From Planctomycetota bacterium (GTDB lineage Bacteria > Planctomycetota > E44-bin39), in contig SOJX01000087.1 in the NCBI GenBank assembly GCA_004376375.1, positions 81,238-145,237 of the forward strand: a DNA stretch of 64,000 nt, in the 5' to 3' direction. A program made the position numbers and the translations under genes. The stretch's first letter is position 1. The number at the start of each line of letters is the position of its first letter. The notes beneath the pieces are model-generated. The model was not told the origin of the DNA. It saw nothing but the letters and a program-made list of their open reading frames with translations, and searched no databases. Shown here piece by piece: positions 45,064-63,597 of this stretch.

Positions 45064-45730
45064 GTTACAGAATTCCTGGGTTTGTAACCCTGAAAATTTT
45101 CGGCATGGTTTTTGTCGGGAGTTAAAAGTTTAAAGTGTAATCTGAAGTTACATCAATGCTTTGGGAGTCAAAAGTTTAAAGTTATAAGTTTAAAGTTAAA
45201 TCATTTGCTCTGGACTTTTAACTTTCGACTTTTGACTTTAAACTCTATTTCCTGATTTTTCCCAGGTTGCAGAATGCGAATAGAATGGTTATTGGTTTTT
45301 GGTCATTGGTTTTTGGTTAAAGGTCTCAAGTCTCAGGACTAATTATTGGCCGAATGACTGAGTGACTTTTCCCGACCGAAAGGTTTTATGAATCGAAAGC
45401 TCCATTCTGGTATTCTGGTAAGACAATACCACAATGGTGTTCTTTGAAGCATTTGAAATGGGAAGGGGAAAGAAGGAAATGCAAGAATGCCGGAACGATG
45501 TGCTGTTAAGTTTGTAATGCGGAAATTTTTTGGCACGGGATTTGAGGGCGTAGTTAAAAGTTTAAAGTTGTAAGTTCTAAGTTAAATCCAATGCTCCGGA
45601 CTTTTAACTTAGGACTTTTGACTTTAAACTTCTTACCCGATTTTCGATTGTCGATTTTACTTATTACCTTGTCAACCTGTTACCGTGTTCCTTCTCCCGA
45701 TTCCCGGCCGAATGACGGAGTGATTTTTTC
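45064..45730. repeat. tandemly duplicated noncoding module (unit A 45064..45375, unit B 45503..45730), each with a long AT-rich imperfect palindrome built from TAAAGTT/AACTTT heptamers (45166..45245 and 45552..45631)
   Basis: Shared blocks 'gtttgtaa..gaaaatttt(c/t)ggca(t/c)gg', 'agttaaaagtttaaagt...gacttttaactt..gacttttgactttaaact', 'ggccgaatgac(t/g)gagtga(c/t)tttt'. Confidence 0.55.
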
Positions 45731-45852
45731 CAAATTTAGATTTTCGATTGGATGGTTCGGCACTTAGAAAAACATTTCGCTGGTAACTTCCGGTTCATCG
45801 TTATAAAATCTTTATCATTCCATAATGTTTCAGAAAGTTGAAAGGTAAGGAA

Positions 45853-48792
45853 ATGGGAGCGCCAAAGAAAATCAGGGAACTTGTCAAAGGATTCGAACTA
45901 AATCTGAAGATTGATGGAAAGGATTTCATAGATGAAGCAAATCTCCGAAATGAATATATAAACGAGTTCTTTAAGTGCCTTGGCTGGGATGTGGAGAATA
46001 ATAAGCGCAGAATCGCAAGCTGGAAAGAAGTTATTCTAGAGCGGTCACATGGTGCAAAGGGAAAGAAGAAGCGTGCTGATTACACGATCCGCATTGGGCA
46101 AACTCCTGTTTTTCTGGTGGAGGCAAAGAGGCCATCAGTCAATATAAGGAAAGATGTAGATTCGGTATACCAACTGCGAAAGTATGGATGGAACCAAAGG
46201 GTTGTTCTAAGTATTTTGACGAATTTTGAATTCTTTGCAGTATATGATTGCCGCAAGCAGCCTTTCAGGAGTGAAAGGGCAAAGACTTCGCTTGTTCCCA
46301 AGCTTTCATTCCATTACAGGGAATACGTTTCCCGATGGGCTGAAATCGAATCAATGTTCTCAAAGGCAGCGATTGAAAAAGGCTCATTTGATGAATTCGC
46401 GATCAAGAAAAGAAGTGGAACTCTGCCGGTCGACGAAGCTTTTCTTGAGGAAATAGAATCATGGCGAAAACAACTTGCGAAAGATATTGCAAAGAGAAAC
46501 AGGCGGCTTTCGAATGATCAGATTACTTCAGTCGTTCAGCGCACGATAGACAGGATAATATTCCTTCGTATCTGCGAGGGTCGGGGAATAGAACACGAAC
46601 AACTGATCAAACTTCTTGAGGAAAGCAACACGTACAATTGCCTCGGCGTTTTGTTTAAAACCGCGGACAAGAAATACAATTCAGGGCTTTTCTACTTTAA
46701 AAAAGAAAAGAACCGCCTTCCCGAAACAGACGAATGGATGCTAAACCTAAAAATCGATGACAAGGTGATCAAGAGAATAATCAGGCAACTTTATGAGCCA
46801 TATTGCCACTACCAGTTCGCAATGATGCCGGCTGACGTTCTTGGGCAGGTTTACGAACAATTTCTTGGAAAAACTATAAAGCTTAAGAAATCTCGCCGTG
46901 TAGAGATTAAATATAAACCAGAGGTAAAGAAGGCAGGCGGGGTCTACTATACTCCAACCTATATCGTAGACTACATTGTTGAGAATACGGTTGGCAAACT
47001 ACTTGAAAAATGCAAAACACCGAGAACGGCCTCCAATCTGAAAATCCTCGATCCTGCATGCGGCTCTGGTTCCTTCCTGATTGTCGCTTACCAGAAGCTT
47101 ATGGACTGGCATCTCGAATATTATATTATGGATGGGCCAAAGAAATACTCTAGGGGCAGAAAACCAAAAATATTCGAGTTTAACGGCGAGTGGCACCTGA
47201 CGACGGGAGAGAAGAAAAGGATTCTGTTAAACAACATCTTCGGCGTTGATATTGACGAGCAGGCTGTGGAAGTTACGAAACTCTCTCTGCTTCTGAAAGT
47301 ACTGGAGGGAGAAAATGACCGCACACTTCAGAAGCAGTTGTTACTCTTTCCGGAGCGGGTTCTGCCGGACCTCCACAGAAATATCAGGTGTGGAAACTCG
47401 CTTATCGGGACGGATTTCGAGGATGAAATAGGAAGAAGTTATGAAAGTGAAAAAGAACGCTCACAGGTAAATGCGTTCGACTGGGATGGGGAAAAAGGAT
47501 TTCCGGAAATTTTCAATAGAAAGAATCCGGGCTTTGACGCGGTGATTGCGAATCCGCCATATGACGTTTTGGAAAAGGAAAGAGGGAAGGCCTCTTGGCC
47601 ACATGATTTGTTGTCAGATTATGTTAGAATTAATAAGAATTATAAATATGGACTTGGAGGGAAGCTTAATCTATTTAGGTTCTTCATTATCCGTTTCGTT
47701 CATCTTCTGCGAAGAAACGGAAAACTTGGGATGATTACCCCATTAGCTTTGCTTGCGGATATTAGTTGTGCTAGAACCCGCCGCCATCTAGTTTGTTGTA
47801 CTACGAAATCCATTGCAAACTGCTTTCCGCAAAAAGACAATCCAAAGCGCCGGGTATTTACCAAAGCAAAGCTCTCAACCGTAGTGTATACAGGGACTAG
47901 AACACCGAAACAGTCCGAAGAACGAGCGCAAGTTCGCGTTCGTGCCTTTCCATGGAATAGCTTTAATGACCAATACGTTGAATGTCTTATAAGATTGCAG
48001 GATACAAGGCTATTGGACCCCGAAAACACACCTATTCCTCTTCTTAACGAAGACACATGGCGCTTATGCAAAAAGATACATAAGATGAGGATGGTTGTTC
48101 GTATTGCGGAATTATCCGATATAGAAGTTCGGCGCGGTGAAATCAACCAGACGGTTTATAGAAGCTTCATATCGAGCAATAAGAAATTGCATCGCCTCCT
48201 GAAAGGTGTTGAATTCGGGCAATATATAATGCATAAAGAATTAAGTCAAGGAAAGCGAGAATGGTTTAATGAGAAGGCGTTTTTAAAGAAACATTCATCT
48301 TATTCCATTATAAAGAAGAGACGCATTGCAACTCAGCGAATCACCGGTGTTGATGAAAAGCTAAGGATAGTGGCAACAATCATTGAATCACCAGCATATT
48401 TTGCAGACTCAACTAACTCTGTCTCTCTTTCTGAAGAATCACCCTACGCACTTGAATACGTTTTGGGATTACTAAACTCAAAAATGTTCCAATGGCGTTT
48501 CAAAGTTACAAGCACAAATAATAACGTCGGGACAAATGAAATTAAATCCTTGCCATTTCGCAGCATGATTTTTTCGCATAAAAAGGACAAAGCTCGCCAT
48601 GACCGGATAGTGAAGCTCGTTGAGACGATGATTGATTTGAACAAGAAGCTGCCAAAGGCAAAGGGCGGGCATCAGAAGGAAGTGATTCAGCGGCAGATTG
48701 ACGCGACGAACAGGAAGATTGATAAGCTTGTTTACGAGCTTTACGGGTTAACAAATAGGGAAATTAAAATTGTAGAAGAAGGGGCCTTATAG
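45853..48792 (+). CDS. type IIL/IIG restriction-modification fusion enzyme (MmeI-like): N-terminal PD-ExK nuclease, N6-adenine methyltransferase and target-recognition domain
   Basis: 'ADYTIRIGQTPVFLVEAKRP' (D...EAK). Motif I 'ILDPACGSGSFL'. Motif IV 'VIANPPYDV'. About 980 aa. Strong RBS 'aaggtaaggaa' before ATG 45853 (the ORF track starts at a TTG at 45838). Confidence 0.75.
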   Translation: MGAPKKIRELVKGFELNLKIDGKDFIDEANLRNEYINEFFKCLGWDVENNKRRIASWKEVILERSHGAKGKKKRADYTIRIGQTPVFLVEAKRPSVNIRKDVDSVYQLRKYGWNQRVVLSILTNFEFFAVYDCRKQPFRSERAKTSLVPKLSFHYREYVSRWAEIESMFSKAAIEKGSFDEFAIKKRSGTLPVDEAFLEEIESWRKQLAKDIAKRNRRLSNDQITSVVQRTIDRIIFLRICEGRGIEHEQLIKLLEESNTYNCLGVLFKTADKKYNSGLFYFKKEKNRLPETDEWMLNLKIDDKVIKRIIRQLYEPYCHYQFAMMPADVLGQVYEQFLGKTIKLKKSRRVEIKYKPEVKKAGGVYYTPTYIVDYIVENTVGKLLEKCKTPRTASNLKILDPACGSGSFLIVAYQKLMDWHLEYYIMDGPKKYSRGRKPKIFEFNGEWHLTTGEKKRILLNNIFGVDIDEQAVEVTKLSLLLKVLEGENDRTLQKQLLLFPERVLPDLHRNIRCGNSLIGTDFEDEIGRSYESEKERSQVNAFDWDGEKGFPEIFNRKNPGFDAVIANPPYDVLEKERGKASWPHDLLSDYVRINKNYKYGLGGKLNLFRFFIIRFVHLLRRNGKLGMITPLALLADISCARTRRHLVCCTTKSIANCFPQKDNPKRRVFTKAKLSTVVYTGTRTPKQSEERAQVRVRAFPWNSFNDQYVECLIRLQDTRLLDPENTPIPLLNEDTWRLCKKIHKMRMVVRIAELSDIEVRRGEINQTVYRSFISSNKKLHRLLKGVEFGQYIMHKELSQGKREWFNEKAFLKKHSSYSIIKKRRIATQRITGVDEKLRIVATIIESPAYFADSTNSVSLSEESPYALEYVLGLLNSKMFQWRFKVTSTNNNVGTNEIKSLPFRSMIFSHKKDKARHDRIVKLVETMIDLNKKLPKAKGGHQKEVIQRQIDATNRKIDKLVYELYGLTNREIKIVEEGAL

Positions 48793-48884
48793 CAAAATGG
48801 CGAAACTTAATTTTGTGCTTGATGTAAGCATTATGTTTGGGTAATATGGTGGCCCACGTAACAGTCTTCGTAAAGGAGGATCAA

Positions 48885-49100
48885 ATGCCAAAAGCAAAGA
48901 AAAAAGCCAAAAAAAAAGCCAGAAAAAAAGCTAAAAAAACAGATAAGGAAACACAAATTCTTGAGGAGTTGATGGGGATAAAGAGACTCTTGGTTTTGGC
49001 AATTATAAAGAAGGATAAAATCAAACAGAAAGATATTTCAAAAGTGCTTAATGTTGGGGAAGCTACGATAAGCAGAATGATGTCGAAGGGAACGGGATAA
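48885..49100 (+). CDS. small Lys-rich HTH DNA-binding protein (possible controller/regulator)
   Basis: RBS 'aaggagg' 8 nt before ATG 48885. 'QKDISKVLNVGEATISRMM' HTH. Confidence 0.4.
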   Translation: MPKAKKKAKKKARKKAKKTDKETQILEELMGIKRLLVLAIIKKDKIKQKDISKVLNVGEATISRMMSKGTG

Positions 49101-49139
49101 ATAGACAAATATGCTCGGAAGCCAAGAGAGTAAGAAATT

Positions 49140-50021
49140 ATGCCGTTAGAAGTATCGGATGCGATATCAAATGCTCCGGAGCAAATCAAATTCGCTGCCG
49201 AAGCATTATGTCGGTCTGATATCGCCTTTAAAGTCTTCGATGCAATATATAAGGGCAAGAAAAAAGCCAAAACTGTTGAAGAAATTGTGGGTAAAACAAA
49301 ACTTACAAGGAAGCAAGTCCTAACACACGGCAATAGATTAGCACAAAAACATATTGTAAAGCAAATTGGAAAATATGGAAACATCGCTTACGAAAAAATA
49401 GATTTCTTCTATCCACACAAGCGGGAAATATTGCGACTCGCTAAGGACCCTAAGAAGCGTGAAGCATATACGACAAAAAGAAATCCGAAATCTGGTAGTT
49501 CGGGTTTTGTGAATATAAGGATTCAAACAAAAAGAACAAGGACAGAGCAAATTACTGTAGACGATATTGGGTCTTTCAAGAAAATTGGCAAGGTCGCGAC
49601 ATCAAAACACATACCAAATACTGTTTCTGAGAGAAAATTCAAGAGGGGTATTAAAAATATTCTTGGTGAACATGGTGAGTTCAAGGATTGGGGTGGCGAA
49701 AAGAATGACCTATACACAACGCGCCTAAGAATGGATGGCAAACGTCGGGTGGTTGCATTTGCCTTTAAAGGGCCGGGAACCCGTGGCAAATTAGTTCCCG
49801 GCAAGCTTGGAAAAAATGGCGACCAGATTCAGAGACTATTTGAGGCAGACGCCGATGTCTTTATTATTCAGTACTGGCGCGATATCGCCGAAAGCGTGAT
49901 TCAACAGATGTTCCAACTCGCCATTGCAAAATCCGCGATGACTGGTAGAAAAGTATCTTACGGCATTATAGATGGGTATGATTCAAACAGAATTTTCAAA
50001 GCATACCGAAAAAAGTTTTAG
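49140..50021 (+). CDS. hypothetical protein: N-terminal wHTH-like region, C-terminal region weakly Mrr/PD-(D/E)xK-nuclease-like
   Basis: 'FKDWGGEKNDLYTTRLRMDGKRRVVAFAFKG...DADVFIIQYW' loosely resembles restriction-endonuclease cores. AT-rich like the adjacent R-M gene. Confidence 0.35.
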   Translation: MPLEVSDAISNAPEQIKFAAEALCRSDIAFKVFDAIYKGKKKAKTVEEIVGKTKLTRKQVLTHGNRLAQKHIVKQIGKYGNIAYEKIDFFYPHKREILRLAKDPKKREAYTTKRNPKSGSSGFVNIRIQTKRTRTEQITVDDIGSFKKIGKVATSKHIPNTVSERKFKRGIKNILGEHGEFKDWGGEKNDLYTTRLRMDGKRRVVAFAFKGPGTRGKLVPGKLGKNGDQIQRLFEADADVFIIQYWRDIAESVIQQMFQLAIAKSAMTGRKVSYGIIDGYDSNRIFKAYRKKF

Positions 50022-52409: not shown

Positions 52410-52560
52410 AGAAAGTATGAAGTATGAAGGCTGAAGTATGAAAAGAAGTACCAAGTACCAAGTACCGAGTACCAAGTATCAAGTACCAAGTATCAAATAC
52501 CAAGTATCAAGTACCGTAAAAAGAGACATCTGGTACTTGGTTCCTGGTACTTGGTACTTT
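52410..52560. repeat. tandem heptamer array ((G/C)AAGTA(T/C), about 17 units) followed by its inverted complement (TGGTACT units), forming a long hairpin in the nadB-hflX spacer
   Basis: 'gaagtatgaaggctgaagtatgaaaagaagtaccaagtaccaagtaccgagtaccaagtatcaagtaccaagtatcaaataccaagtatcaagtaccg ... tggtacttggttcctggtacttggtact'. Confidence 0.7.
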
Positions 52561-54245: not shown

Positions 54246-55730
54246 CTACTTGCCTTTCTTGAGTCCGGTGCCGGTCCAGATGATTCTATCGTTCGGGTTG
54301 CCGATAAGGGGCGTGGTGGCCCGCTTCAGAAACAGGATGCAAAAACATGTGTTGGCGGTCGCGCCGGAAAACCTGTCGGTAGGCCAGCTTCCGTCGGCGA
54401 GCTGGCTGCCGAGAATAGCATTCGCGCCCTCTGTGTACCAGTCATGGGTTCCCAGCATTTCGCAGCAGGAAAGCACTCCCGCGCGCTCAAGGCCGTAAAG
54501 ATAATAGTAATAGTGCTGAGAACCGAGCCCGGGATTGGCGGTCGCGCTGAAGTTATGGGCAAGCCAGGCAGCGCCGTCGCGGATACCCTTGTTTACTTTC
54601 TTCTTCATGCCTTTCCAGGCCCCGGGGTAATATTCCAGCGCGGCCTTGCAGATCACAAGCGCGGCGACGCCGGAGGTCGTCATCGATCCGATGACCTGTT
54701 CACCGTGAGGCGTTCCTCCCTTGCCTTTCGGAGTGTATGACCAGCCGCGGGCAAACATTTCCCGGTTCTCAACACCGAGTCCGAATTCCTCGGGATCGAT
54801 GGTGCCCGTGCGCGGGCCTTTGTCTTTGTCTTTTTCTTCTTCTTTCTCGTCTTTTTTCTTACGGGCCTGTTCTTTTTCTTTTTTCCTGCGCGCGGTCTGC
54901 AGCTTCTTGAGGAATTTCTTCTGTACTTTCTTAAGCTTCGAGATGTCCCAGTCGGCCGCGGGGACTACGAACGGCTTCACTTTCGGGCCTTCTTTTTCCT
55001 GTTCGGCAACGAAATATTTCGCCGTCTTGATCCAGACGTTGGCCGGGATTTTACAGTTGCACCGGCGGCCCGCGTTCAGCGCAAGCAGCGCGTACTGGGT
55101 GTTGGAATTGTCGACCGGGGATGTATCGTTTGCGGGTATTACGGTGACCTCCTTCGGGTACCGCCATACCGTATCCGTCTGCTTGGATACCATCCAGTCG
55201 ATCAATTCCTGCATCCTCCTTTTGTCTTTAGGAGAAGCGCCTTTTACCCAGTTTCGCTTGACCTGCTCCTCGTATGGAGTGGTCGACATCTTGGATTTCT
55301 TTTTTTTGGTTTTGTCAGCGGGTTTCGGAGGCGGAGGAGCGTACCGTGCCTCGAGCGCAAGAATGTAGCAGGCGACCGAATATGTCTGCTCCAGTTTGGC
55401 ATCCGCAAGGTATGCGAACGCTTTATTGATTACGGGGTCGTTGCGCTTGACGCCGCCCTTGAGGAGCGCAAACGTACAAAGCGCGGTATAGCCCATCTTA
55501 AAAATTTTGGTATGGCCTAGGCCGTCGCTCGACCAGCTTCCGTCTGCTTCCTGTTTGCCTTTCACCCAGGCGATTGCCTTGTCTATCGCTTCGTCAATGC
55601 GTTTCGGGTCCACGTCAACGCCGTCTTTGCTGTCATCGTCATCCTCGCCCGGAAAGACGGCTCCCGAGGTAAAAACAAACGCAATCGACACTACCGCCAG
55701 TACAAGAATTCGAAAGTATCGGTTATACAT
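54246..55730 (-). CDS. secreted prenyltransferase/squalene-oxidase-repeat protein with Lys/Glu-rich low-complexity linkers, paralog 1
   Basis: Signal peptide 'FRILVLAVVSIAFVFTSGAVFP'. 'DGSWSSDG', 'QLADGSWP'. 'RRKKEKEQARKKKDEKEEEKDKDK'. Confidence 0.5.
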   Translation of the reverse strand: MYNRYFRILVLAVVSIAFVFTSGAVFPGEDDDDSKDGVDVDPKRIDEAIDKAIAWVKGKQEADGSWSSDGLGHTKIFKMGYTALCTFALLKGGVKRNDPVINKAFAYLADAKLEQTYSVACYILALEARYAPPPPKPADKTKKKKSKMSTTPYEEQVKRNWVKGASPKDKRRMQELIDWMVSKQTDTVWRYPKEVTVIPANDTSPVDNSNTQYALLALNAGRRCNCKIPANVWIKTAKYFVAEQEKEGPKVKPFVVPAADWDISKLKKVQKKFLKKLQTARRKKEKEQARKKKDEKEEEKDKDKGPRTGTIDPEEFGLGVENREMFARGWSYTPKGKGGTPHGEQVIGSMTTSGVAALVICKAALEYYPGAWKGMKKKVNKGIRDGAAWLAHNFSATANPGLGSQHYYYYLYGLERAGVLSCCEMLGTHDWYTEGANAILGSQLADGSWPTDRFSGATANTCFCILFLKRATTPLIGNPNDRIIWTGTGLKKGK

Positions 55731-55770: not shown

Positions 55771-57246
55771 TTACTTGCCCTTCTTTCTTCCGGGACCGGT
55801 CCAGATGATTCGCTCGTCCGGACTGCCGATAAGGGGCGTGGTGGCACGCTTCAAAAACAGAACAGCGAAACACGTATTGGCGGTCGGACCGGAAAAATTG
55901 TTGCTGTCGGGCCAGCATCCATCGGCGAGCTGACTGCCGAGGATTGCTTCTGCTCCCTTGTTGTACCAGTCGTGCTTGCCGTATTTCTCGCAGCATGAAA
56001 GGACGCCGGCGCGTTCGAGACCGTACAAGTAATAATAGTAATTCCTGTTTCCCCCTTTTGGATTGGAAGTTGCGCTGAAATTATGGGCAAGCCACGCGCA
56101 ACCATCGCGAATCGCCTGGTTCACGTCTTTTCTCATCCCCCGCCACGCTCCGGGATTCAACTCCAGAGCGGCCTTACAGATAACGAGCGAGGCAATCCCG
56201 GACGTCGTCATCGAACCGGTAAACTTCTCGTCCTTTTTGCTTTCTTCATTGCGCTTGAACCCGGGTATGTAGGACCAGCCACGCGCCTTCATTTCATGCT
56301 GCTCGACTCCAAGGCCGTACTCTTTGGGATCAATGGCGCTGGTCCTCGGCCCTTTGTCTTTTTTTTCTTCTTCTTCCGCTTCTTTCCTCTTTTTCGGGCT
56401 GCAGGCTTTCTCCAGTTCGGCTTTTCTTCGCGCGGTATGCAGTTTCTTGAGGAATTTCTTCTGTATCTTTTTCAGTTTCGCTATGGGCCAGTCGGCCGCA
56501 GGCACAACAAACGGCTTGACTTTGGGGCCGTCCTTCTCCTGAGCCTTGATAAAGTATTCGGCCGTCTTGCCCCAGCACTCCACCGGAATCTTGCATCCGC
56601 ACCGGCGGCCTGCGCTGAGTGCGAGCAGCACATACTGTGTGTTGGAGTTGTCAACGTCGCTGCCATATCCTCCCGGATACCGCCACACGGTCTCGGTCCG
56701 TTTGGATAGAAGCCAGTCAATCAATTCCTGCATCTTTTTGCGGTCTTTCGGGCGCGCCTTGCCGTGCCAGTTGCGCTGCATCTGCTCTTCATAGGGAATA
56801 GTACGCGACTTTTTTTTCTTCTTTTTCTCGTCCTTTTCTGACGCTTTAGGCAAAGGCGGCGCATAACGAGCCTCAAGAGCCAGAACATAGCAGGACACGT
56901 CATAGGTTTTTTTAAGCTCCTGCTCCTCAAGAGAAGCGAACGCCCTGTTGATAACCGGATCGTTGGGTTTCAGGCCCCCCTTCAGCAGCGCGAAAGTCAC
57001 AAGCGCCGTGTATCCCATCTGAAAGTCTTTTGTGTGGTCAGAGCCATCGCTTTCCCAGCTTCCATCGTCTTTCTGTTTGCTTTTCAGCCAGGCAACAGCC
57101 TTGTCAATCGCGTCGTCGATGCGCTTTGGGTCCACGTCAACGCCGTCTTTGTCGTCATCACCCGGTAAGCCGGCTCCAGGGGCGAAAACGAATACAATCG
57201 ACACAATCGCCAGTACAAGAATTCGAAAGCGGCGAGTGCACATCAT
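55771..57246 (-). CDS. secreted prenyltransferase/squalene-oxidase-repeat protein, paralog 2 (about 70% identical to paralog 1)
   Basis: Collinear with 54246..55730 ('DGVDVDPKRID', 'SNTQYVLLAL', 'YYYYLYGLERAGVLSCCE', 'IIWTGPG'). Confidence 0.5.
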   Translation of the reverse strand: MMCTRRFRILVLAIVSIVFVFAPGAGLPGDDDKDGVDVDPKRIDDAIDKAVAWLKSKQKDDGSWESDGSDHTKDFQMGYTALVTFALLKGGLKPNDPVINRAFASLEEQELKKTYDVSCYVLALEARYAPPLPKASEKDEKKKKKKSRTIPYEEQMQRNWHGKARPKDRKKMQELIDWLLSKRTETVWRYPGGYGSDVDNSNTQYVLLALSAGRRCGCKIPVECWGKTAEYFIKAQEKDGPKVKPFVVPAADWPIAKLKKIQKKFLKKLHTARRKAELEKACSPKKRKEAEEEEKKDKGPRTSAIDPKEYGLGVEQHEMKARGWSYIPGFKRNEESKKDEKFTGSMTTSGIASLVICKAALELNPGAWRGMRKDVNQAIRDGCAWLAHNFSATSNPKGGNRNYYYYLYGLERAGVLSCCEKYGKHDWYNKGAEAILGSQLADGCWPDSNNFSGPTANTCFAVLFLKRATTPLIGSPDERIIWTGPGRKKGK

Positions 57247-57718
57247 CTTCCCCCCCAGAAGTCCGTATCTCTCTTTATGTGACATATTTTTAGTTTACTG
57301 GAATCCGCAAAAGGATTCAAGCAAAATACACGCTTTACAACCTTAGATCGTGCCGAGAATAACAAAATGCGCTGCAAACAATCTGCAGATAATGCGGGTC
57401 CGTCATGAATTTTCCGGAAAGTCCCTGTCGAGTTTAAACGGAATTGTAATTAGTGCTTCAATGGAGAAAATTAGGCCGTTAGAGTTGCCAAACGCCAATC
57501 TGTATTGTATAATATAGTGGATCTTTTTACGGGCGTGAAATCGTCGAGTTGCATATATCCGTCGAAGCCACATGATTGTTCTAACTCGTTATGATGGACG
57601 CGATTCCGATTATGAGGTTTTATCTGGCAGATAAGACTGGTCTGTCATGAGTGCGCATGCAATATGCGTAAACCAGTTGGGTGATATATTTGCTTCGAAA
57701 CTAAGTCTCCAACATGGG

Positions 57719-58177
57719 ATGATAGACATGACTAATACCCCAAATACACAACTATGCGATAATCCTAGAATAACGACCCCAACGTCCAGAGGCCGCCGGG
57801 AAGGTGTCACCCTTCTTGAGATTGTTATAGCGGCGATGGTCCTGGTGGTTGGCCTTTTGAGCTTTTTTGCGGTATTTTTAAACTGCACGAAGCTTGATCA
57901 GACTTCCAAGGAAAGCATTACAGCCATGAACTTCGCCCGGAAAACTATGGAGAACCTTCGCGCAACGGACTTTGATTCAATCGGGGGCAAAGCTGGTCCG
58001 ATTCCTGCCAACGAGGCGCCCGTTGAGCTTGATGTCATTACCGGCGTACCTGTCGGAAACGTCACTGTTGTCACGAGACCTGACGGCCTTCTTGACGTTA
58101 CAGTTATAGTTCGTTGGGCCGGCATAACCGGCGATCGGAGACTCGAACTGGAAGCCCTGTTCGCCCCGACGGAATAA
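57719..58177 (+). CDS. minor pseudopilin, GspI/PilV-like (prepilin-type N-terminal cleavage/methylation domain)
   Basis: 'RREGVTLLEIVIAAMVLVVGLL', a class III signal with Glu5. Confidence 0.55.
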   Translation: MIDMTNTPNTQLCDNPRITTPTSRGRREGVTLLEIVIAAMVLVVGLLSFFAVFLNCTKLDQTSKESITAMNFARKTMENLRATDFDSIGGKAGPIPANEAPVELDVITGVPVGNVTVVTRPDGLLDVTVIVRWAGITGDRRLELEALFAPTE

Positions 58178-58191
58178 GCCCGGCGAATGTC

Positions 58192-58893
58192 ATGATACAA
58201 GGGAGCAAAAGCAGCATGAACATAAACATTTTCACCCGCCGCTCACGGCAAAAGGGCATGACCCTTATCGAGATGATGCTTGCCGTGGCGTTGCTGACTG
58301 TTATACTTGCCGCTCTTTTCACATCGCTTACGAGCAGCCAGAAAGCATATAACTTCGGCATGTCCGAACTCACTCTACAGGAAACGGCAAACAGGGTCGT
58401 AGGTCAGATCACGGAGAAAATCCGCGAGTCGAGCGCGAATAACATGATACGCGACCTGGACAACGGCCTCTGGATAACTCTACAAAAACCGGTAGACCAC
58501 GACCTCGACAACGACGTTTTCGATTTAAACTGGAACGTTGAATACGGCGAGCGTTACGGCGGCGCCGACCACCTCGGCGCGTACTGCACTATCAGCTACG
58601 AGGTCGTCGGAAACGACAGTCGAATAAAGTTTAGCTACTACGACAACAATGCGGTGCTTCAATCCGAAAAAGTCGTATGCGAAAACCTGATCTTTCCCAT
58701 CGACGAGGACGGTGACGGAGTGGATGAACACATATTCACGCGCATCAATGCTGCAGAATACGAGGATTCAGATGGAAATTGCATTAAATTAAGGTTCATA
58801 ATCCTGGCAACCGATCAAGCCGGGCTTCAGCACCAACTTGAATTTACTGAAAGAAAAAAAACGGCAATAATTATTCATCTAAGAAATCCATAA
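58192..58893 (+). CDS. minor pseudopilin, GspJ/PilW-like
   Basis: 'QKGMTLIEMMLAVALLTVILAALF' prepilin N-terminus. Confidence 0.55.
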   Translation: MIQGSKSSMNINIFTRRSRQKGMTLIEMMLAVALLTVILAALFTSLTSSQKAYNFGMSELTLQETANRVVGQITEKIRESSANNMIRDLDNGLWITLQKPVDHDLDNDVFDLNWNVEYGERYGGADHLGAYCTISYEVVGNDSRIKFSYYDNNAVLQSEKVVCENLIFPIDEDGDGVDEHIFTRINAAEYEDSDGNCIKLRFIILATDQAGLQHQLEFTERKKTAIIIHLRNP

Positions 58894-58937
58894 CCTTTAA
58901 CCATTCCCGGCGCCGGACGCCGGATAAGGAGACGCTG

Positions 58938-60665
58938 ATGGAACACCCAGAAAACACCGACAAGAAAGGCAGCGCCCTGATAATCACGATGATACTTCTT
59001 ATCGTCATCATGGGCCTTGCCGGATCATATCTCACACTTTCAGTCTCGGGCGCGCAAGTAACGACCCGGGAGATGGAATTCGCTAACGCCTCATACCTGG
59101 CCGAAACGGCTATTAGTATTGCGATTAACCAGGTAAACGCCGGCAACTCCGGCGACTGCAGCGGTTATTTCCCGCCGGGGCAAACGGACGGAAAGTACGA
59201 ATCGTATGAATTGCCCTGCCCCCCTGGCTCGGATTATCGTAAAATCATCGGAACCGGAACCTACACGGGCCCCTATGGTGATGCGACATACTCAATTGAG
59301 GTCTATATAAAACGTGTGAGGCTTTACCCGTTTACGGGAGCGGCGTTCGGCAATACTTCCGTCTCACTGGCAGCCTTTACAGACAGCTATAACTCCTCAG
59401 AAGGAGACGGCACTTACAACAGCCAGGCCACAAACAGCATTTCGCTTGAAGAGGCAAACGAAAGCTGCACCACCTGCGGCGGCGGTGGCTCTGAAACCTG
59501 CCCAACCTGCAGCGGCACAGGCGACGCCGCATGCGGCGACTGCAACGGCGGAATCCTTCCCTGCGTCGACTGCGGCGGGGCAGGCGGCAGCACCTGCGCA
59601 ACCTGCAGCGGAAGCGGCACCCTGGGCGTCTGTACCGTTTGCTCGGGGACAGGCCGCACTCCCGTCGGATGCACTTTCTGCGGCGGCGACGGGCTCAAAG
59701 ATAACGGTAATCCATGCGTCAAATGCGGTGTCTGCGGGAACTGCGGCGGAAGCGGCGGTTCGGGAGCGTGCACCGATTGCGGCGGTGACGGGACAATCGA
59801 GTGCGCCACCTGCAGCGGGAGCGGTACCGGCGACATCTGCACCACCTGCAGCGGCGACGGACTGGTTACGTGCGGCATTTGCTCCGGAGGCGGAAGCGTC
59901 ACCTGCGGAACCTGCAGCGGAACAGGAATAGTCCCCACCGATCCCGTCGTATACGCAGATACCGAAGGCGACATAGGCGCAAACGAGACTGTCACAATCG
60001 CCAGCTCGGGAGTGATTTTTGGAAATGCGACATCAGGACCGAACGGAACCGTAACCAACGGCGGCTACGTCTACGGCGACATATATGCCGATACCGTAGA
60101 CAGGACATTCGACATACCGCCGTACAGCACAACCCTAACAAGCGAGGGCGCTTTATCCGGCTCGACTACGATAAACGGGGGAGAACATCGCTACGACACC
60201 GTAAACATCGCCGGAAGTAATGTCGTAACCATTACCGGCAATGTTACAATGTACGTCGATGGTGATTTCAAAACAGCCGGAAGTGGAGAGTTCAAGCTCG
60301 CCTCGGGGGCTTCTCTTATCCTCTACCACGGCAGCGGCAATTTTCACATTGCCGGAACAGGCATTGTAAACGAGGATAATGCACCGACGAAACTGATCAT
60401 CATCTCCTCGGCGAAAACGGCAGTTGACGGCGCCTTTTTCCATTTCAACGGCCAGGCCGATTTCTCGGGAGCGGTGTTCGCACCCGGAGCGGATATAAGA
60501 GTCAACGGCCAGACTGAAAACTATGGCTCGCTTGTGGGAAGAAACATCACGACAAGCGGATCGGGAAAATGCATTATCCATTATGACGAAGCTCTTGACG
60601 GAATGAACTTTAACCTCTGGAAGAAGAAGTTTGTACTCAGGAGCTGGAGAAGGTACTGGCCGTAA
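58938..60665 (+). CDS. GspK/PilX-like minor pilin carrying an inserted array of about 14 CxxCxGxG (DnaJ-type zinc-finger-like) units and a Gly-rich beta-helix-like C-terminal domain
   Basis: PilX_N-like 'GSALIITMILLIVIMGLAGSYLTLSVSGAQVTTREMEFANASYLAETAISIAINQ' with no Glu5. Residues about 177-326 contain 28 Cys as 14 CxxC pairs, most followed by G-x-G. Confidence 0.6.
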   Translation: MEHPENTDKKGSALIITMILLIVIMGLAGSYLTLSVSGAQVTTREMEFANASYLAETAISIAINQVNAGNSGDCSGYFPPGQTDGKYESYELPCPPGSDYRKIIGTGTYTGPYGDATYSIEVYIKRVRLYPFTGAAFGNTSVSLAAFTDSYNSSEGDGTYNSQATNSISLEEANESCTTCGGGGSETCPTCSGTGDAACGDCNGGILPCVDCGGAGGSTCATCSGSGTLGVCTVCSGTGRTPVGCTFCGGDGLKDNGNPCVKCGVCGNCGGSGGSGACTDCGGDGTIECATCSGSGTGDICTTCSGDGLVTCGICSGGGSVTCGTCSGTGIVPTDPVVYADTEGDIGANETVTIASSGVIFGNATSGPNGTVTNGGYVYGDIYADTVDRTFDIPPYSTTLTSEGALSGSTTINGGEHRYDTVNIAGSNVVTITGNVTMYVDGDFKTAGSGEFKLASGASLILYHGSGNFHIAGTGIVNEDNAPTKLIIISSAKTAVDGAFFHFNGQADFSGAVFAPGADIRVNGQTENYGSLVGRNITTSGSGKCIIHYDEALDGMNFNLWKKKFVLRSWRRYWP

Positions 60666-60747
60666 ATTCATACTGTCGGAAAAAACAAATAAAAGAAAAT
60701 TTCTTCACCGGCGGCTTTAAAGCCGCCGGTGTTATTATATGGTCGGA

Positions 60748-63306
60748 TTAATTCCCGAAGTTGTCAGGAATGTTTAAACGGATGCGCCGCGGAATAGAAG
60801 CACGCGGCTCCCGCAGGAAACGAGTAACACTGATTTCAGGCCCGGAAATGTAAACCGTTACAGTTCCGTAAAGGCCCGTGATATGAACCTCGCCGGCTGC
60901 ATCATAAGGTGAAACCATATCAGCATAAAGCCTCGAAGCGTAATTTGAAATCAGGAAAATCGACGCGCCGGTTGCACGGGCCAGATCGGACGCGTTCTCA
61001 AACTTACAGCCATGATGTGGAACCTGTACAACGTCGACCGACAGGTCTGCTCCAGATTCCACAAGTCTTGCATAACCGTACTCCTCAATGTCGCCGGTAA
61101 GCATGATACGCCGCCCGTCCCACTCAAGTCGCACGACCAGGGATGTTTCATTTTCAATCTTGCGTCGCGGAAGCGGCGAATCCGTCGGGGCCAGCACATT
61201 AATTTTCAGCCCGGGAACACTTTCGATTGCATCACCGCTGCCGACAACGTGCAAAGGAATCCCCGCTTCTGCCAGCTCCTTCTGAAGTTCAACTGCCTTC
61301 CACTGCGGCGTCCATTGCGGCGAGCCGCGAAAATACCTGTTCACATATACCGCGCCTATCTTGAACTTGTCGAGCAGGTAAGCCGCGCCCCCGTAGTGGT
61401 CCATTTGCGCGTGTGAAAGCACCAAGGCATCGATATTACTCACCCCGCAATGCCAGAGATAGGGCGACAGCACGCTTCGCCCCGCGTTGAAGCCCGGCTT
61501 GGCACCGCAGTCGTATACCAGGATTCCACCCTCCGGCGTCCGTGCAACCATGCAACTCATATCGCCGACATCGAGCATTGCAAGCTCGAATCGAGCCGGA
61601 CGTTTCTCCGGCAATCGGGTCAGAATAAAAGCAACTGCAAACAGGACGAATCCAAAGCCGATCCACATTCGTCTGACCGGAAACGGCAGTCGGCGCGAAA
61701 GCTCATCTCTGAACGCAAGAATCAGAAGAAAGAGATAATATACCAGCAGCCACACTGCGGAAAAATCGCCGATATACCAGTATGCGCGGAGCGGTTCGGG
61801 CAGGGAAATGATTGTATGAAAGCATTGCACGGCCCATTCGATCGGCCGCGCGAGTGCAGTGATACCCGTTATCGCCACCAAGGCCAGAGCGAGGAAACCT
61901 CCGCCGATAACGACCCATATGAAAAGACACGCCGCCACTGACAGAATAACGGCCAATGGTGTTACAATGTGAAAATAATAGGCGACGAGCGGACCCGTGG
62001 CAAGCCACGCGGCAAGCGAAACCACCAGGTTGGCGCGAAGGAAACTCCAGGCGAGTCTAATCCCTTTCAGGCGGAATTCCGGCTCGGCCAGTCGTTCGAA
62101 AAGCCTGTCCTCCTCCCGTGTCATCAGACGCTCCAGCGGGCGGGCCAGAAACATTATTCCCAGTACGCCGCCGAAGGAAAGCTGGAACCCCGGACCGATA
62201 AGATCGAATGGATTGACAAGGAGCACGAAAACGGCGGCAGCGGCAATCGCATCCAACCCCCGCCTCTGGCGCCTGAAAAAAACTGCGCCCAGGTAAAAAA
62301 GTATCATCACGAGCGCACGCAGAACCGATGGGCGAAAGCCGGCAATCGCAGCATAAAGCGTAACCGCTATTCCGATAACCAGCATCCGCGGCCTGCGCGG
62401 AATAAACCATAACGCGATCCCCAGGAAAGCCGCAAATAGTGCCAGGTGCAGGCCGCTTATCGCAAGAATATGGGCCGTCCCGCTGGTGATGTATGCATCC
62501 CGCCTTTCATTCGTAAGGAGACGCCGCTCGCCAAGCAGAATGGCCAGTAGAAAATCAAGCGTGCTGCCTTCAGCCTTTCCTTTCTCACCGAAAGTGGAAA
62601 CGGTCAGTTTTACCATTGCGGCGCGTAGGTCGGCGAGCGGATGAAAGCCGCGCCTTCCGAGAACTTCTATTTCGCTGCTGCTTTTGACAACTATGTTGGC
62701 GAATATTTTATTGCGCGCCAGAAAAGCCCGGAAATCAAAGCCGCCGGGCGTCGACTTCGCAAAAGGCCTGTAAATATTGCAGGTAAGACGAATCCGGCTT
62801 CCGACCGGCAGAAATTCATAGAGTTTGTAAAACTTGATTCTTGCATGCCCGTGAATATTCGCCGTCTTTCCATCCGGCATGGTAACCGACTCTATTTGAA
62901 TCTCGCCCTTGGCCTGCCGGTCTGCATAAGAAAACTTCCTGCTCCTGCCAGCCTGCTTGTTATCGTATTCCTTCTCACCGCTGAGCATGGCCCGCGATAT
63001 CGGCGGTTCTATAATTATGCCGGTAACGCTCACGGTGCCTTCAATTTTATCGACATGGAAACGAATATGATTTCTGCCATAGAAACCGGCATGGGCAGCG
63101 ACAGCGGCAAGGCCGGTCATAAGCCCGCATAAAACCACTTTAATGAAACCGGGGCGAAATGCCGAGAAGACAAGGACCGCAATTACCGCGGCAATAAGCA
63201 AAACAGGAAGAAGAAGCGGCGCGGGGTCCGGAAACAGCAGCAATCCGGCGATAATGCCGGGCAGAAACCCAAGAGTGAAAGTGGGTACTGGGCGTGAAGA
63301 TTCCAA
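60748..63306 (-). CDS. comEC: DNA internalisation-related competence protein ComEC/Rec2 (DUF4131, competence domain and metallo-beta-lactamase domain)
   Basis: Polytopic N-terminal half. MBL motif 'LSHAQMDHYGG'. 'VVQVPHHG'. About 850 aa. Confidence 0.8.
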   Translation of the reverse strand: MESSRPVPTFTLGFLPGIIAGLLLFPDPAPLLLPVLLIAAVIAVLVFSAFRPGFIKVVLCGLMTGLAAVAAHAGFYGRNHIRFHVDKIEGTVSVTGIIIEPPISRAMLSGEKEYDNKQAGRSRKFSYADRQAKGEIQIESVTMPDGKTANIHGHARIKFYKLYEFLPVGSRIRLTCNIYRPFAKSTPGGFDFRAFLARNKIFANIVVKSSSEIEVLGRRGFHPLADLRAAMVKLTVSTFGEKGKAEGSTLDFLLAILLGERRLLTNERRDAYITSGTAHILAISGLHLALFAAFLGIALWFIPRRPRMLVIGIAVTLYAAIAGFRPSVLRALVMILFYLGAVFFRRQRRGLDAIAAAAVFVLLVNPFDLIGPGFQLSFGGVLGIMFLARPLERLMTREEDRLFERLAEPEFRLKGIRLAWSFLRANLVVSLAAWLATGPLVAYYFHIVTPLAVILSVAACLFIWVVIGGGFLALALVAITGITALARPIEWAVQCFHTIISLPEPLRAYWYIGDFSAVWLLVYYLFLLILAFRDELSRRLPFPVRRMWIGFGFVLFAVAFILTRLPEKRPARFELAMLDVGDMSCMVARTPEGGILVYDCGAKPGFNAGRSVLSPYLWHCGVSNIDALVLSHAQMDHYGGAAYLLDKFKIGAVYVNRYFRGSPQWTPQWKAVELQKELAEAGIPLHVVGSGDAIESVPGLKINVLAPTDSPLPRRKIENETSLVVRLEWDGRRIMLTGDIEEYGYARLVESGADLSVDVVQVPHHGCKFENASDLARATGASIFLISNYASRLYADMVSPYDAAGEVHITGLYGTVTVYISGPEISVTRFLREPRASIPRRIRLNIPDNFGN

Positions 63307-63387: not shown

Positions 63388-63597
63388 TCACCGTTTTTTC
63401 TTTTCCAGCCTTGCAATGATCCTGGAGGGAGAAACGCGCAATGCCGCGCAGATACGGAGGAAGACATCAAGCGTCGGACTTTTCACATCTCTTTCCAAAA
63501 GGCTTATGTATGTGCGGTGGACGCCGGCCTTGTGGGCAAGCTTCTCTTGAGTCAGGCCGGCCCTTTTTCTTTCTTTTACCAGTTCTTTACCAACCAT
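63388..63597 (-). CDS. XRE-family HTH transcriptional regulator
   Basis: 'LTQEKLAHKAGVHRTYISLLERDVKSPTLDVFLRICAAL'. Confidence 0.7.
   Translation of the reverse strand: MVGKELVKERKRAGLTQEKLAHKAGVHRTYISLLERDVKSPTLDVFLRICAALRVSPSRIIARLEKKKR

What the first reader, a model, noticed from the sequence alone, without database searches (positions are those of the whole stretch)
58938..60665. Minor-pilin tip protein (GspK/PilX-like) with a tandem array of about 14 DnaJ-type CxxCxGxG units, converging on comEC
Three consecutive genes (57719..60665) look like a GspI/J/K-type minor-pilin set. The first two carry classical prepilin N-termini with Glu5. The third has a PilX_N/GspK-like N-terminus without Glu5. 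That third protein contains, at about nt 59466..59915, 28 cysteines arranged as 14 consecutive CxxC pairs, nearly all followed by G-x-G. Examples: CTTCGGGG, CPTCSGTG, CVDCGGAG, CATCSGSG, CTVCSGTG, CTFCGGDG, CTDCGGDG, CTTCSGDG, CGICSGGG, CGTCSGTG. The spacing matches the DnaJ cysteine-rich zinc-finger domain, which has 4 units, so this is 3.5 times the canonical count. It sits on a protein predicted to occupy the tip of a type IV or competence-type pilus. The operon converges on comEC (60748..63306), which has an XRE regulator upstream. This raises the possibility of a metal-binding or disulfide-rich tip adhesin, or a DNA receptor, for a transformation pilus. The coding DNA is itself repetitive (the 'acctgcagcgg' unit recurs), so unit number may vary by recombination.
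Basis: partly seen in the sequence, partly recalled or inferred. Interest (0 to 1): 0.78.

Follow-up and report, generated by a model that had tools for sequence, protein, structure and literature searches.

The report
Pilus cap protein carrying cysteine ladder
A Planctomycetota gene next to the DNA-uptake channel gene comEC encodes a pilus-capping protein of the Thermus ComZ type, and a rare insert of 14 DnaJ-type cysteine motifs in it probably folds back on itself into a thin rod held by seven four-cysteine (likely zinc) sites.

Summary
ORF 58938..60665 (575 aa) holds 28 cysteines as 14 CxxC pairs (aa 177-326), and 12 of them fit CxxCxGxG.

About 490 cluster representatives match at E<=1e-10. 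Of the 150 best, only two clusters (four known proteins) carry the cysteine array. It is inserted at the junction between pilin domain and solenoid.

New here: in this protein, its orthologs and unrelated array proteins, unit counts are even. The longest connector is usually central, and the spacings are mirror-symmetric, as in BSD2 (11|24|11). This suggests an antiparallel hairpin, a "ladder" of 7 tetra-Cys centres (12+1 in one ortholog). Metal binding is untested, and AlphaFold was uninformative on the array.

The array is acidic, so it is unlikely to bind DNA itself. The comEC adjacency holds only within this small clade.

Verdict: a new variant of a known kind, of moderate to high interest.

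The parts
57485..57513 (+). Sigma-70-like promoter candidate upstream of the three-gene cassette (TTGCCA-17-TATAAT).
   Evidence: Consensus scan, 11 of 12 matches. This is a consensus match only and its function is not shown.
57719..58177 (+). Minor pilin 1, small and PilV/GspI-like. Prepilin motif RREG|VTLLE with Glu5. The start codon is ambiguous (57647, 57719 or 57728).
   Evidence: ORF. Best NCBIfam hit is type_IV_pilV, E 3.6e-9 at 37.2 bits, below the 52.2 cut-off. The motif is conserved in orthologs. Gene calls of 149 and 176 aa.
58216..58893 (+). Minor pilin 2, about 225 aa, in the PilW/GspJ position. Prepilin motif QKG|MTLIE with Glu5.
   Evidence: Pfam N_methyl 32.3 bits against a cut-off of 21.2. 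TIGR02532 24.9 bits against 16.3. The profile matches only the alpha1 helices of solved pilins. Gene calls.
58938..60665 (+). Cap minor pilin (575 aa) with ComZ/PilX-solenoid architecture plus the cysteine array. This is the finding itself.
58938..59447 (+). Leader (aa 1-11, ending in Gly11), hydrophobic alpha1 helix without Glu5 (G|SALIITMILLIVIMGLAG), and the beta-sheet of the GspK-like pilin domain (aa 12-170).
59466..59927 (+). Array of 14 CxxC(xGxG) units (aa 177-330). Proposed to be a 7+7 antiparallel hairpin forming 7 tetra-Cys centres.
   Evidence: spacing and mirror symmetry. (similarity to DnaJ CR and BSD2). 27 of 28 Cys are invariant in the four orthologs. AF2 pLDDT is below 50 here.
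59682..59714 (+). Longest, central connector GGDGLKDNGNP (aa 249-259) between units 7 and 8. Proposed hairpin turn and exposed tip loop.
   Evidence: The central gap of 15 is the longest in the array. The motif CGGDG-x-K-x-x-G-x-PC is conserved in all four orthologs and occurs twice in P0004.
59940..60617 (+). Triangular beta-solenoid (aa about 335-560). Pfam DUF7305, ice-binding-protein-like.
60630..60656 (+). C-terminal strand (aa 565-573, FVLRSWRRY). Probably returns to the pilin beta-sheet, which would make the solenoid an insertion in the pilin fold.
   Evidence: AF2 strand at 565-573. W570 and R571 are conserved across the family. The topology is inferred by analogy with ComZ and cyanobacterial PilX.
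60706..60731 (.). Perfect 11-bp GC-rich hairpin between the convergent cap-pilin and comEC genes. Candidate bidirectional terminator.
   Evidence: Terminator scan, 11 pairs of which 9 are GC. Sequence read.
60748..63306 (-). comEC/rec2 (852 aa): DUF4131, Competence and metallo-beta-lactamase domains.
   Evidence: TIGR00361 211 bits against a cut-off of 190. Pfam Competence 3.1e-49.
63388..63597 (-). XRE-family HTH regulator (69 aa) directly upstream of comEC on the same strand.
   Evidence: Pfam HTH_3 3.5e-15.

Best explanation
Genes 57719-58177, 58216-58893 and 58938-60665 encode a stand-alone minor-pilin priming or tip set for a type IV filament. Two are Glu5-bearing pilins. The third is a Glu5-less cap, which by definition sits at the very tip.

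The cap has a GspK-like pilin domain with an ice-binding-protein-like triangular beta-solenoid (DUF7305) inserted in it. Thermus ComZ and cyanobacterial PilX have the same architecture.

In a small Planctomycetota clade, a 154-residue module of 14 CxxCxGxG knuckles has been grafted at the junction of pilin domain and solenoid. I infer that this module folds back at its central GGDGLKDNGNP connector, so that unit i pairs with unit 15-i. That is the same logic as DnaJ and BSD2, where (from my own knowledge) motifs 1+4 and 2+3 each bind one zinc. The result would be 7 stacked tetra-cysteine centres, most likely Zn(Cys)4, in a thin rigid rod projecting from the pilus tip. The rod would act as a stalk or probe presenting the conserved tip loop, not as a DNA-binding surface.

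Adjacency to comEC suggests, weakly, that the filament is a DNA-uptake pilus. In that case any DNA contact would be made by the ComZ-like body.

Shown: the motif array, the pilin motifs, the gene order, the fold similarity and the mirror spacing. Inferred: the hairpin pairing, the metal, the rod function and the competence role.
For: Cap pilin:
- G|SALII with no Glu5. None of 54 family members has Glu at +5, and 51 of 54 have Gly at -1.
- Two Glu5 pilins lie upstream in the window and in L001-L002, L004-L006, L008, L011, L012 and L020.
- A review states that tip complexes are capped by a subunit lacking Glu5.

ComZ-type architecture:
- The AF2 model has pLDDT about 90 outside the array.
- Foldseek top PDB hit is ComZ 6qvi.
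- The family profile hits the ComZ sequence at E 1.4e-4.
- The literature describes a solenoid inserted in the pilin fold.

The array is an insertion:
- The alignment places the array exactly between SQATN and YAxxxGD.

Hairpin ladder:
- Every array scored has an even unit count.
- The central gap is the longest (ties included) in 11 of the 13 arrays scored; that set includes the 82% ortholog P0002 and a post hoc unit range for P0004.
- All 7 arrays that can discriminate favour mirror symmetry over translational symmetry.
- Permutation p is 0.003 for P0004 and 0.007 for P0005.
- P0004 expanded both arms equally, 7+7 to 12+12, keeping the turn motif central.
- BSD2 is a solved 2+2 case with 11|24|11 spacing.

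Metal rather than disorder:
- 27 of 28 Cys are invariant among the four orthologs, against 21 of 81 other residues.
- The single exception is Cys to Asp in P0003, giving DxxC. Asp can ligate metal but cannot form a disulfide.
- Arrays with the same spacing occur in proteins with no signal peptide, so they are predicted to be cytoplasmic.
- CXXCXGXG domains of DnaJ and ZnJ2 bind Zn.
Against: - No metal, disulfide or structure has been measured.
- AlphaFold2 gives pLDDT 30-45 for the array, both in the full protein and alone.
- Pfam DnaJ_CXXCXGXG does not hit at E<=10, and PilX_N is sub-threshold.
- For the window protein alone the mirror test is not significant (p 0.55; gap pairs 13 vs 6 and 10 vs 12). 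The hairpin inference therefore leans on the ortholog P0004 and on unrelated proteins.
- The pilin ectodomain folds in the periplasm, where CxxC pairs may be oxidised.
- No pilus assembly genes (ATPase, platform, secretin, peptidase) were found by the domain scans and gene calls that cover about 7.5-64 kb of the window; 1-7.5 kb was not scanned.
- comEC is absent from the flanks of 14 array-less relatives (L004-L015, L019, L020) and from the short flank of ortholog L002.
- MurJ also lies near both comEC-linked loci, so the adjacency may be inherited synteny.
Confidence: 0.6

Rival explanations
1. Same cap pilin, but the array is a metal-free stalk cross-linked by disulfides. Exported CxxC pairs would be oxidised in the periplasm into a ladder of disulfides that stiffens a Gly/Ser/Thr-rich spacer.
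For: Pilin ectodomains fold outside the cytoplasm (established pilin biology). Other array proteins carry signal peptides or a lipoprotein signal (P0005, P0097, P0132). DnaJ-type CXXCXGXG cysteines are known to be redox active. Even unit counts and mirror spacing fit an inter-arm disulfide ladder as well as they fit metal centres.
Against: The motif is the Zn-knuckle motif of DnaJ and BSD2. Arrays with the same spacing occur in proteins predicted to be cytoplasmic. The one Cys lost in P0003 is replaced by Asp, which would leave an unpaired Cys in a disulfide scheme.
Confidence: 0.22
2. One reading: the cysteine array is itself the DNA receptor of a transformation pilus, in the manner of a zinc-finger DNA-binding module.
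For: The gene is adjacent to comEC in the window and, with a different orientation (comEC directly upstream on the same strand), in the 37-49% ortholog locus L001. The homologous architecture ComZ binds DNA.
Against: The array is acidic: net -8 with only 3 K+R, and -18 in P0004. Zn(Cys)4 centres would add further negative charge. [quoted passage not shown] DnaJ-type CR domains are not known to bind DNA (my own knowledge). The comEC linkage is absent from all 14 array-less relatives and from L002.
Confidence: 0.08
3. The cassette caps a type II secretion-like pseudopilus or another non-competence type IV filament used for adhesion or motility. The comEC adjacency would be inherited synteny with no functional meaning.
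For: The pilin domain matches GspK and XcpX. In Planctomycetota the family cassette is stand-alone and is not linked to comEC in 14 array-less loci. MurJ is also nearby in both comEC-linked loci. Solenoid-bearing PilX proteins serve motility as well as competence pili in cyanobacteria. Tapirin adhesins also appear among the fold hits.
Against: comEC stays adjacent despite an inversion of relative orientation between the window and L001. The closest solved homolog is a competence pilin.
Confidence: 0.3
4. The array is an intrinsically disordered, low-complexity Gly/Cys/Ser/Thr linker with no defined fold.
For: AF2 pLDDT is 30-45 in both runs. HMMER composition filters reject it.
Against: 27 of 28 Cys are invariant across orthologs down to 47% identity, while other positions drift. 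The register is strict at 10-13 residues. Unit counts are even and spacing is mirror-symmetric across unrelated proteins.
Confidence: 0.07

Closest known systems
ComZ, competence-associated tip pilin of Thermus thermophilus (PDB 6QVI; mBio 2019, PMC6561018)
   Different: Sequence identity is only about 10%. ComZ has no cysteine array. ComZ's solenoid is about 380 residues, against about 225 here. ComZ lies in a pilA1-4 competence locus and its DNA binding is experimentally shown. None of this is tested for the window protein.
Cyanobacterial PilX (PilX_Com and PilX_EPS) cap pilins with a beta-solenoid (bioRxiv 10.64898/2026.02.12.705559)
   Same: Glu5-less cap of a minor-pilin priming complex. 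A triangular beta-solenoid resembling ice-binding proteins is inserted between the penultimate and last strands of the pilin fold, and is proposed to act as a tip plug in place of PilY1.
   Different: No Cys array is described in that paper. The phylum and gene context differ.
GspK/XcpX (T2SS) and PilX/PilK (T4aP) cap minor pilins
   Different: The insertion in GspK is an alpha-helical domain. Here it is a beta-solenoid plus a Cys array. Pfam PilX_N is sub-threshold (10.8 bits against 25.5). No GspH/FimU-like fourth pilin and no machinery genes are nearby.
DnaJ cysteine-rich domain (PF00684) and BSD2/ZnJ2 DnaJ-like zinc-finger proteins (PDB 1EXK, 6EKB)
   Same: The CxxCxGxG knuckle motif. BSD2 has the same 11-residue spacing and the same mirror layout (11|24|11). 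phmmer E is 0.003 to BSD2. hhalign probability is 89% to DnaJ CR and 78% to BSD2. Four motifs bind zinc.
   Different: There are 14 units (26 in P0004) instead of 4. There is no J-domain or chaperone context. The location is exported rather than cytosolic or stromal. The Pfam model does not hit at E<=10.
Modular type IV pilins (for example Streptococcus sanguinis PilB with a vWA module and PilC with a lectin module)
   Same: The concept is the same: a functional module not specific to pili is grafted onto a tip-located minor pilin.
   Different: The grafted module here is a cysteine-knuckle array. The paper searches made here turned up no pilin carrying such an array.

Membership tests
Type IV pilin-like protein, cap class (GspK/PilX/PilK/ComZ) | Class III signal: a short charged leader ending in Gly, followed by a hydrophobic stretch of about 20 residues | tested here: met
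   MEHPENTDKKG|SALIITMILLIVIMGLAG. A Kyte-Doolittle TM segment spans aa 14-32. Gly at -1 in 51 of 54 family members.
Type IV pilin-like protein, cap class (GspK/PilX/PilK/ComZ) | Absence of Glu5 in the cap subunit, while partner pilins keep it | tested here: met
   Ile at +5. None of 54 relatives has Glu there. Both upstream pilins have Glu5.
Type IV pilin-like protein, cap class (GspK/PilX/PilK/ComZ) | Pfam PilX_N (PF14341) above the gathering score | tested here: not met
   10.8 bits against a cut-off of 25.5. The ortholog P0003 reaches 19.1 bits.
Type IV pilin-like protein, cap class (GspK/PilX/PilK/ComZ) | Pilin fold (long alpha1 plus antiparallel sheet) superposable on GspK | tested here: met
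Type IV pilin-like protein, cap class (GspK/PilX/PilK/ComZ) | Encoded as the last gene of a minor-pilin set | tested here: met
   The order pilin(E5)-pilin(E5)-cap occurs in the window and in 10 related loci.
Type IV pilin-like protein, cap class (GspK/PilX/PilK/ComZ) | Cleavage by prepilin peptidase and location at the filament tip | not testable with these tools
   Needs biochemistry or proteomics of sheared pili.
ComZ-type pilin (beta-solenoid inserted in the pilin fold) | A triangular ice-binding-protein-like beta-solenoid joined to a GspK-like domain in one chain | tested here: met
ComZ-type pilin (beta-solenoid inserted in the pilin fold) | DNA binding and a requirement for natural transformation | not testable with these tools
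   Only the adjacency to comEC is available, and it is confined to this clade.
Pfam DUF7305 (PF23981) | HMM score above the gathering cut-off | tested here: met
   66.9 bits against 27, E 2.8e-18, aa 407-555. Orthologs also hit pAdhesive_15.
DnaJ cysteine-rich domain (PF00684 DnaJ_CXXCXGXG) | The CxxCxGxG motif | tested here: met
   12 of 14 units fit fully and all 14 have CxxC.
DnaJ cysteine-rich domain (PF00684 DnaJ_CXXCXGXG) | Pfam HMM hit above the gathering score | tested here: not met
   No hit at E<=10 for the whole protein or for the isolated array. The cause is probably the composition filters.
DnaJ cysteine-rich domain (PF00684 DnaJ_CXXCXGXG) | Four motifs forming two Zn centres by antiparallel pairing (1+4, 2+3) | tested here: inconclusive
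   There are 14 motifs, not 4. Mirror-symmetric spacing and a central long connector are consistent with extended antiparallel pairing, but no structure is available.
DnaJ cysteine-rich domain (PF00684 DnaJ_CXXCXGXG) | Zinc binding | not testable with these tools
   Needs metal analysis.
ComEC/Rec2 (neighbouring gene 60748..63306) | TIGR00361 above the cut-off; Competence plus MBL domains | tested here: met
   211.1 bits against 190.05. Pfam Competence 3.1e-49 and Lactamase_B 8.4e-13.
Verru_Chthon cassette (TIGR02600/TIGR02599) | HMM score above the cut-off | tested here: not met
   8.6 bits against 332 for protein A, and 12.8 bits against 256 for protein C.

The most novel reading that the evidence does not exclude
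The mirror-symmetric CxxCxGxG arrays (6+6 up to 12+12 units) may be an undescribed general fold: a 'zinc-ladder hairpin', which is the DnaJ/BSD2 two-centre hairpin extended into a nanometre-scale rod of stacked tetra-Cys metal centres. Bacteria would reuse it in cytoplasmic, membrane and secreted proteins. In this Planctomycetota clade it has been grafted onto the cap of a comEC-linked type IV filament. That would give a metal-dependent, possibly redox-switchable, probe at the tip of a DNA-uptake pilus. A more extreme version, not excluded by the evidence, has the centres binding Fe in rubredoxin fashion (CxxCG knuckles) and forming an electron-hopping chain at the pilus tip.
Probability: 0.2. 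Interest if true: 0.85.

Novelty: new variant of a known kind. Interest (0 to 1): 0.62.

Why it matters
Tip-located cap pilins determine what a type IV filament touches, whether DNA, surfaces or cells. Solenoid-bearing caps (ComZ, cyanobacterial PilX) have only recently been recognised.

This locus extends that architecture to Planctomycetota through DUF7305. It gives that domain of unknown function a concrete structural assignment. It also shows a second level of modularity: a 7-rung cysteine-knuckle hairpin, 12+1 rungs in one ortholog, grafted at the junction of pilin domain and solenoid.

The spacing analysis further suggests that long DnaJ-type arrays in many unrelated proteins are hairpin ladders. 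That is a simple prediction, one metal per two units with unit i pairing with unit N+1-i. It could define a new rod-like structural module.

If the comEC link is functional, the locus would also be a handle on natural transformation in a phylum where, to my knowledge, it is essentially unstudied.

Tried and rejected
- AlphaFold2 on the isolated array, with a 6-sequence alignment of 7+7 arrays, gave pLDDT 30 and no usable model. The array was also below 50 in the full-length model.
- Two word-indexed homolog searches with array-only queries (the window array and the P0132 array) returned nothing, presumably because of composition filtering.
- The Pfam DnaJ_CXXCXGXG model and every NCBIfam model fail to hit the array, so no named repeat family covers it.
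- The afdb50 fold library was unavailable.
- The genome-contig scan with the 54-sequence alignment failed for lack of a conserved stretch. The 11-sequence alignment then gave 11 loci.
- The metagenome scan found only 2 more relatives, both without arrays and without comEC. The array clade therefore stays at four proteins.
- Verru_Chthon cassette membership was rejected on very low scores.
- Cytochrome-type heme binding was rejected. The array contains no His, so there is no CxxCH motif.
- A hypervariable tandem DNA repeat was rejected. TRF finds none, and the DNA copies are 60-81% identical.
- An assembly artefact or split gene was rejected.
- I looked for pilus machinery. The domain scans and gene calls cover about 7.5-64 kb of the window and found none there; 1-7.5 kb was not scanned. 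Three related cassettes (L008, L011, L012) also have none nearby.
- L002's downstream gene was tested as comEC or as the window's next gene. It is neither.
Full report
**Observation**

The ORF 58938..60665 (+) is intact and encodes 575 aa. It has 31 cysteines. 28 of them lie between aa 177 and 326 as 14 non-overlapping CxxC pairs (nt 59466-59927), and 12 of these fit CxxCxGxG. Start-to-start spacings are 11,11,10,11,12,13,15,6,12,11,12,11,11. Shuffling the array residues gives 4.8 +/- 1.8 CxxC (maximum 12 in 20,000 shuffles), against 15 observed when overlapping matches are counted.

The 11-mer ACCTGCAGCGG occurs five times in the window, all inside the array. TRF nevertheless detects no tandem repeat, and the DNA copies are only 60-81% identical. 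Two other assemblies match the window with 0 and 1 mismatches over 15 kb. Orthologs at 82%, 60% and 37-49% identity from other metagenomes keep the same single-ORF architecture. The gene is therefore not an assembly artefact or a fusion. One source names the organism as a Planctomycetota MAG.

**The three-gene cassette**

Gene 1 (57719/57728..58177) has RREG|VTLLE. Gene 2 (58216..58893) has QKG|MTLIE. Both carry Glu at +5.
- Gene 2 passes Pfam N_methyl and TIGR02532.
- Gene 1's best hit is PilV, below the cut-off.

Gene 3 has KKG|SALIITMILLIVIMGLAG with Ile at +5. In a 54-member family alignment, none has Glu at +5 and 51 have Gly at -1. The order pilin(E5)-pilin(E5)-cap(no E5) recurs in L001-L002, L004-L006, L008, L011, L012 and L020. 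Longer four- and five-pilin versions occur in a Desulfobacteraceae and a Thalassotalea MAG. A review states that minor-pilin tip complexes are capped by a subunit lacking Glu5. A promoter-like site (57485-57513) precedes the cassette. A perfect 11-bp hairpin (60706-60731) separates it from convergent comEC.

**What the third protein is**

Pfam places aa 407-555 in DUF7305 (66.9 bits, cut-off 27). PilX_N is sub-threshold. Orthologs also hit pAdhesive_15, described as "putative ice-binding-like adhesive domain".

An AlphaFold2 model built with 54 homologs shows three regions:
- a long alpha1 helix (7-68) and a beta-sheet (77-151), mostly at pLDDT about 90;
- a beta-solenoid (337-555) at pLDDT mostly above 90, followed by a final strand (565-573);
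- the Cys array, below pLDDT 50.

[quoted passage not shown] It is argued to sit at the tip, binds the neighbouring pilin PilA2, and binds DNA through lysines between the two domains. Cyanobacterial PilX caps have the same IBP-like solenoid. DUF7305 proteins are therefore ComZ/PilX-solenoid-type cap pilins.

**The array is a rare insertion**

An exhaustive HMMER search of 1.84 billion cluster representatives gives 490 proteins at E<=1e-10. Most of the 150 listed are about 400 aa and match the query in two stretches, on either side of the array. Only P0001 and P0004 (with P0002 and P0003 from the earlier 90%-cluster search) combine DUF7305 with an array. In the alignment, the array sits exactly between the conserved DSYDS..GTYxSQATN and YAxxxGDxGxN motifs. 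This is the junction of pilin domain and first solenoid rung, where array-less relatives have about 10 residues.

**How the array probably folds**

The same kind of array occurs in unrelated proteins:
- an FGE-sulfatase-domain protein (P0005, 24 units);
- lipoprotein-like and signal-peptide proteins (P0132, P0097);
- proteins with no signal peptide and only C-terminal TM segments (P0007, P0073, P0147, P0151), or with no TM segment at all (P0008, P0148).

Across these arrays:
- Every array scored has an even unit count (12, 14, 16, 24).
- The central gap is the longest (ties included) in 11 of the 13 arrays scored. That set includes the 82% ortholog P0002 and a unit range for P0004 that was chosen after seeing the data.
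- The spacings are mirror-symmetric. P0147 has 11,11,11,11,14|20|14,11,11,11,11. P0073 has 11x6,17|23|17,11x6. P0008 has 13,11x4|15|11x4,13. P0005 is a perfect mirror (permutation p 0.007).
- All seven arrays that can tell mirror from translational (duplication-type) symmetry favour mirror.

The window protein is 7|15|7 with 4 of 6 gap pairs equal. On its own this is not significant (p 0.55). Its ortholog P0004 shows units 3-14 mirroring units 15-26 in 9 of 11 gap pairs (p 0.003). Relative to the window protein, each arm has grown from 7 to 12 units, and the conserved turn motif CGGDG-x-K-x-x-G-x-PC has stayed central.

BSD2, a solved DnaJ-like zinc protein, is the 2+2 case with 11|24|11 spacing. 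E. coli DnaJ is 17|22|14. In DnaJ, motifs 1+4 and 2+3 each bind one zinc in a hairpin (my own knowledge of Martinez-Yamout et al. 2000). Four CXXCXGXG motifs forming a Zn-binding domain is documented.

I therefore infer an antiparallel hairpin in which unit i pairs with unit 15-i. That gives seven tetra-Cys centres, and 12+1 in P0004. A hairpin brings the two ends together, as an insertion in a loop requires.

**Metal, disulfide or disorder**

Against disorder: across the four orthologs, 27 of 28 Cys are invariant, compared with 29 of 45 Gly and 21 of 81 other residues.

For metal:
- The motif is the DnaJ/BSD2 zinc knuckle (phmmer E 0.003; hhalign probability 89% and 78%).
- Arrays with the same spacing occur in proteins predicted to be cytoplasmic.
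- The one lost Cys in P0003 is replaced by Asp (DxxC), which is a possible metal ligand but cannot form a disulfide.

For disulfides: the pilin ectodomain is exported, and such cysteines can be redox active. This question cannot be settled computationally. AF2 was uninformative.

**Function**

The array is acidic: net -8 with 3 K+R in the window protein, and -18 in P0004. It is therefore a poor candidate for a DNA-binding surface. A rigid stalk or probe presenting the conserved central loop is more likely.

The comEC linkage:
- comEC is convergent in the window and in the 82% ortholog locus L003.
- In L001 (37-49% identity) it lies directly upstream on the same strand: ComEC, pilin, pilin, cap.
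- It is absent from the short flank of L002 and from all 14 array-less loci (L004-L015, L019, L020), most of which have several kb to 10 kb of flank.
- MurJ is also near both comEC-linked loci, so part of the adjacency may be inherited synteny.

The domain scans and gene calls that cover about 7.5-64 kb of the window found no pilus machinery genes; 1-7.5 kb was not scanned. Three other planctomycete cassettes also have none nearby. A competence role is thus plausible, given the ComZ homology and the comEC adjacency, but it is weakly supported.

**Comparison and novelty**

The cap-pilin-with-solenoid architecture is known from ComZ and cyanobacterial PilX. Modular pilins are a known concept. 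DUF7305 has no hit in the paper library searched here. None of the paper searches made here turned up a pilin with a CxxCxGxG array or a description of long mirror-symmetric arrays, but those searches were narrow and cover only open-access text.

I rate this a new variant of a known kind. It is a ComZ-type cap pilin with a grafted, probably metal-stabilised, cysteine-ladder hairpin.

Confidence:
- about 0.85 that it is a Glu5-less ComZ/PilX-type cap pilin;
- about 0.6 for the hairpin ladder;
- about 0.5 for Zn;
- about 0.3 for a competence role.

Noticed in passing
window 44000-50000 (gene 45838-48792 +): A low-GC island (GC 0.40-0.43 against about 0.55 in the flanks, with a positive GC-skew jump) carries a 984-aa fused type IIG/Eco57I-MmeI-like restriction-modification enzyme. 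Its domains are HSDR_N, N6_Mtase, Eco57I and TaqI_C. It is probably horizontally acquired.
   Followed up: partly
window 52446-52559: A heptanucleotide tandem repeat, (AAGTACC)x10, is followed 15 nt later by about 4 copies of TGGTACT, which is close to its reverse complement. It lies in the intergenic region between the hflX-like GTPase gene and the nadB-like (FAD_binding_2) gene. It could form a long hairpin.
   Followed up: partly
window 54246-55730 (-) and 55771-57285 (-): Two tandem paralogs (494 and 504 aa) have weak alpha-alpha-toroid hits (TED_complement, squalene-cyclase-like) and a Lys/Glu-rich low-complexity insert. The same gene type lies upstream of the pilin cassette in the ortholog loci L002 and L003, so the synteny is conserved.
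   Followed up: partly
L003 3424-4023: In the 82% ortholog locus, the second pilin lacks the whole hydrophobic alpha1N segment...RRSRHFGMSELTLQ... against ...RRSRQKGMTLIEMM...NFGMSELTLQ... in the window. This looks like a deletion between two GM(T/S) sites. It could be a pseudogenised pilin or a population variant.
   Followed up: no
P0005, P0007, P0008, P0073, P0097, P0127, P0132, P0147, P0148, P0151, P0153 (not in the window): Unrelated proteins carry 12-24 CxxCxGxG units with the same 11-residue register and mirror-symmetric spacing. They include an FGE-sulfatase-domain protein, lipoprotein-like proteins and C-terminally membrane-anchored proteins. This looks like a general, unnamed structural module.
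   Followed up: partly
window 19619-23140 (-): A 1173-aa protein with Peptidase_C25 (gingipain-like), He_PIG and MAM-like domains sits next to a glycosyltransferase/GH130 cluster.
   Followed up: no
L016 18513-19094 (about 3.4 kb beyond the window end) and L016 16831-18450: A Cu/Zn superoxide dismutase (Sod_Cu) gene and murJ lie just downstream of the comEC-XRE pair. murJ is also found near the cassette in L001.
   Followed up: no
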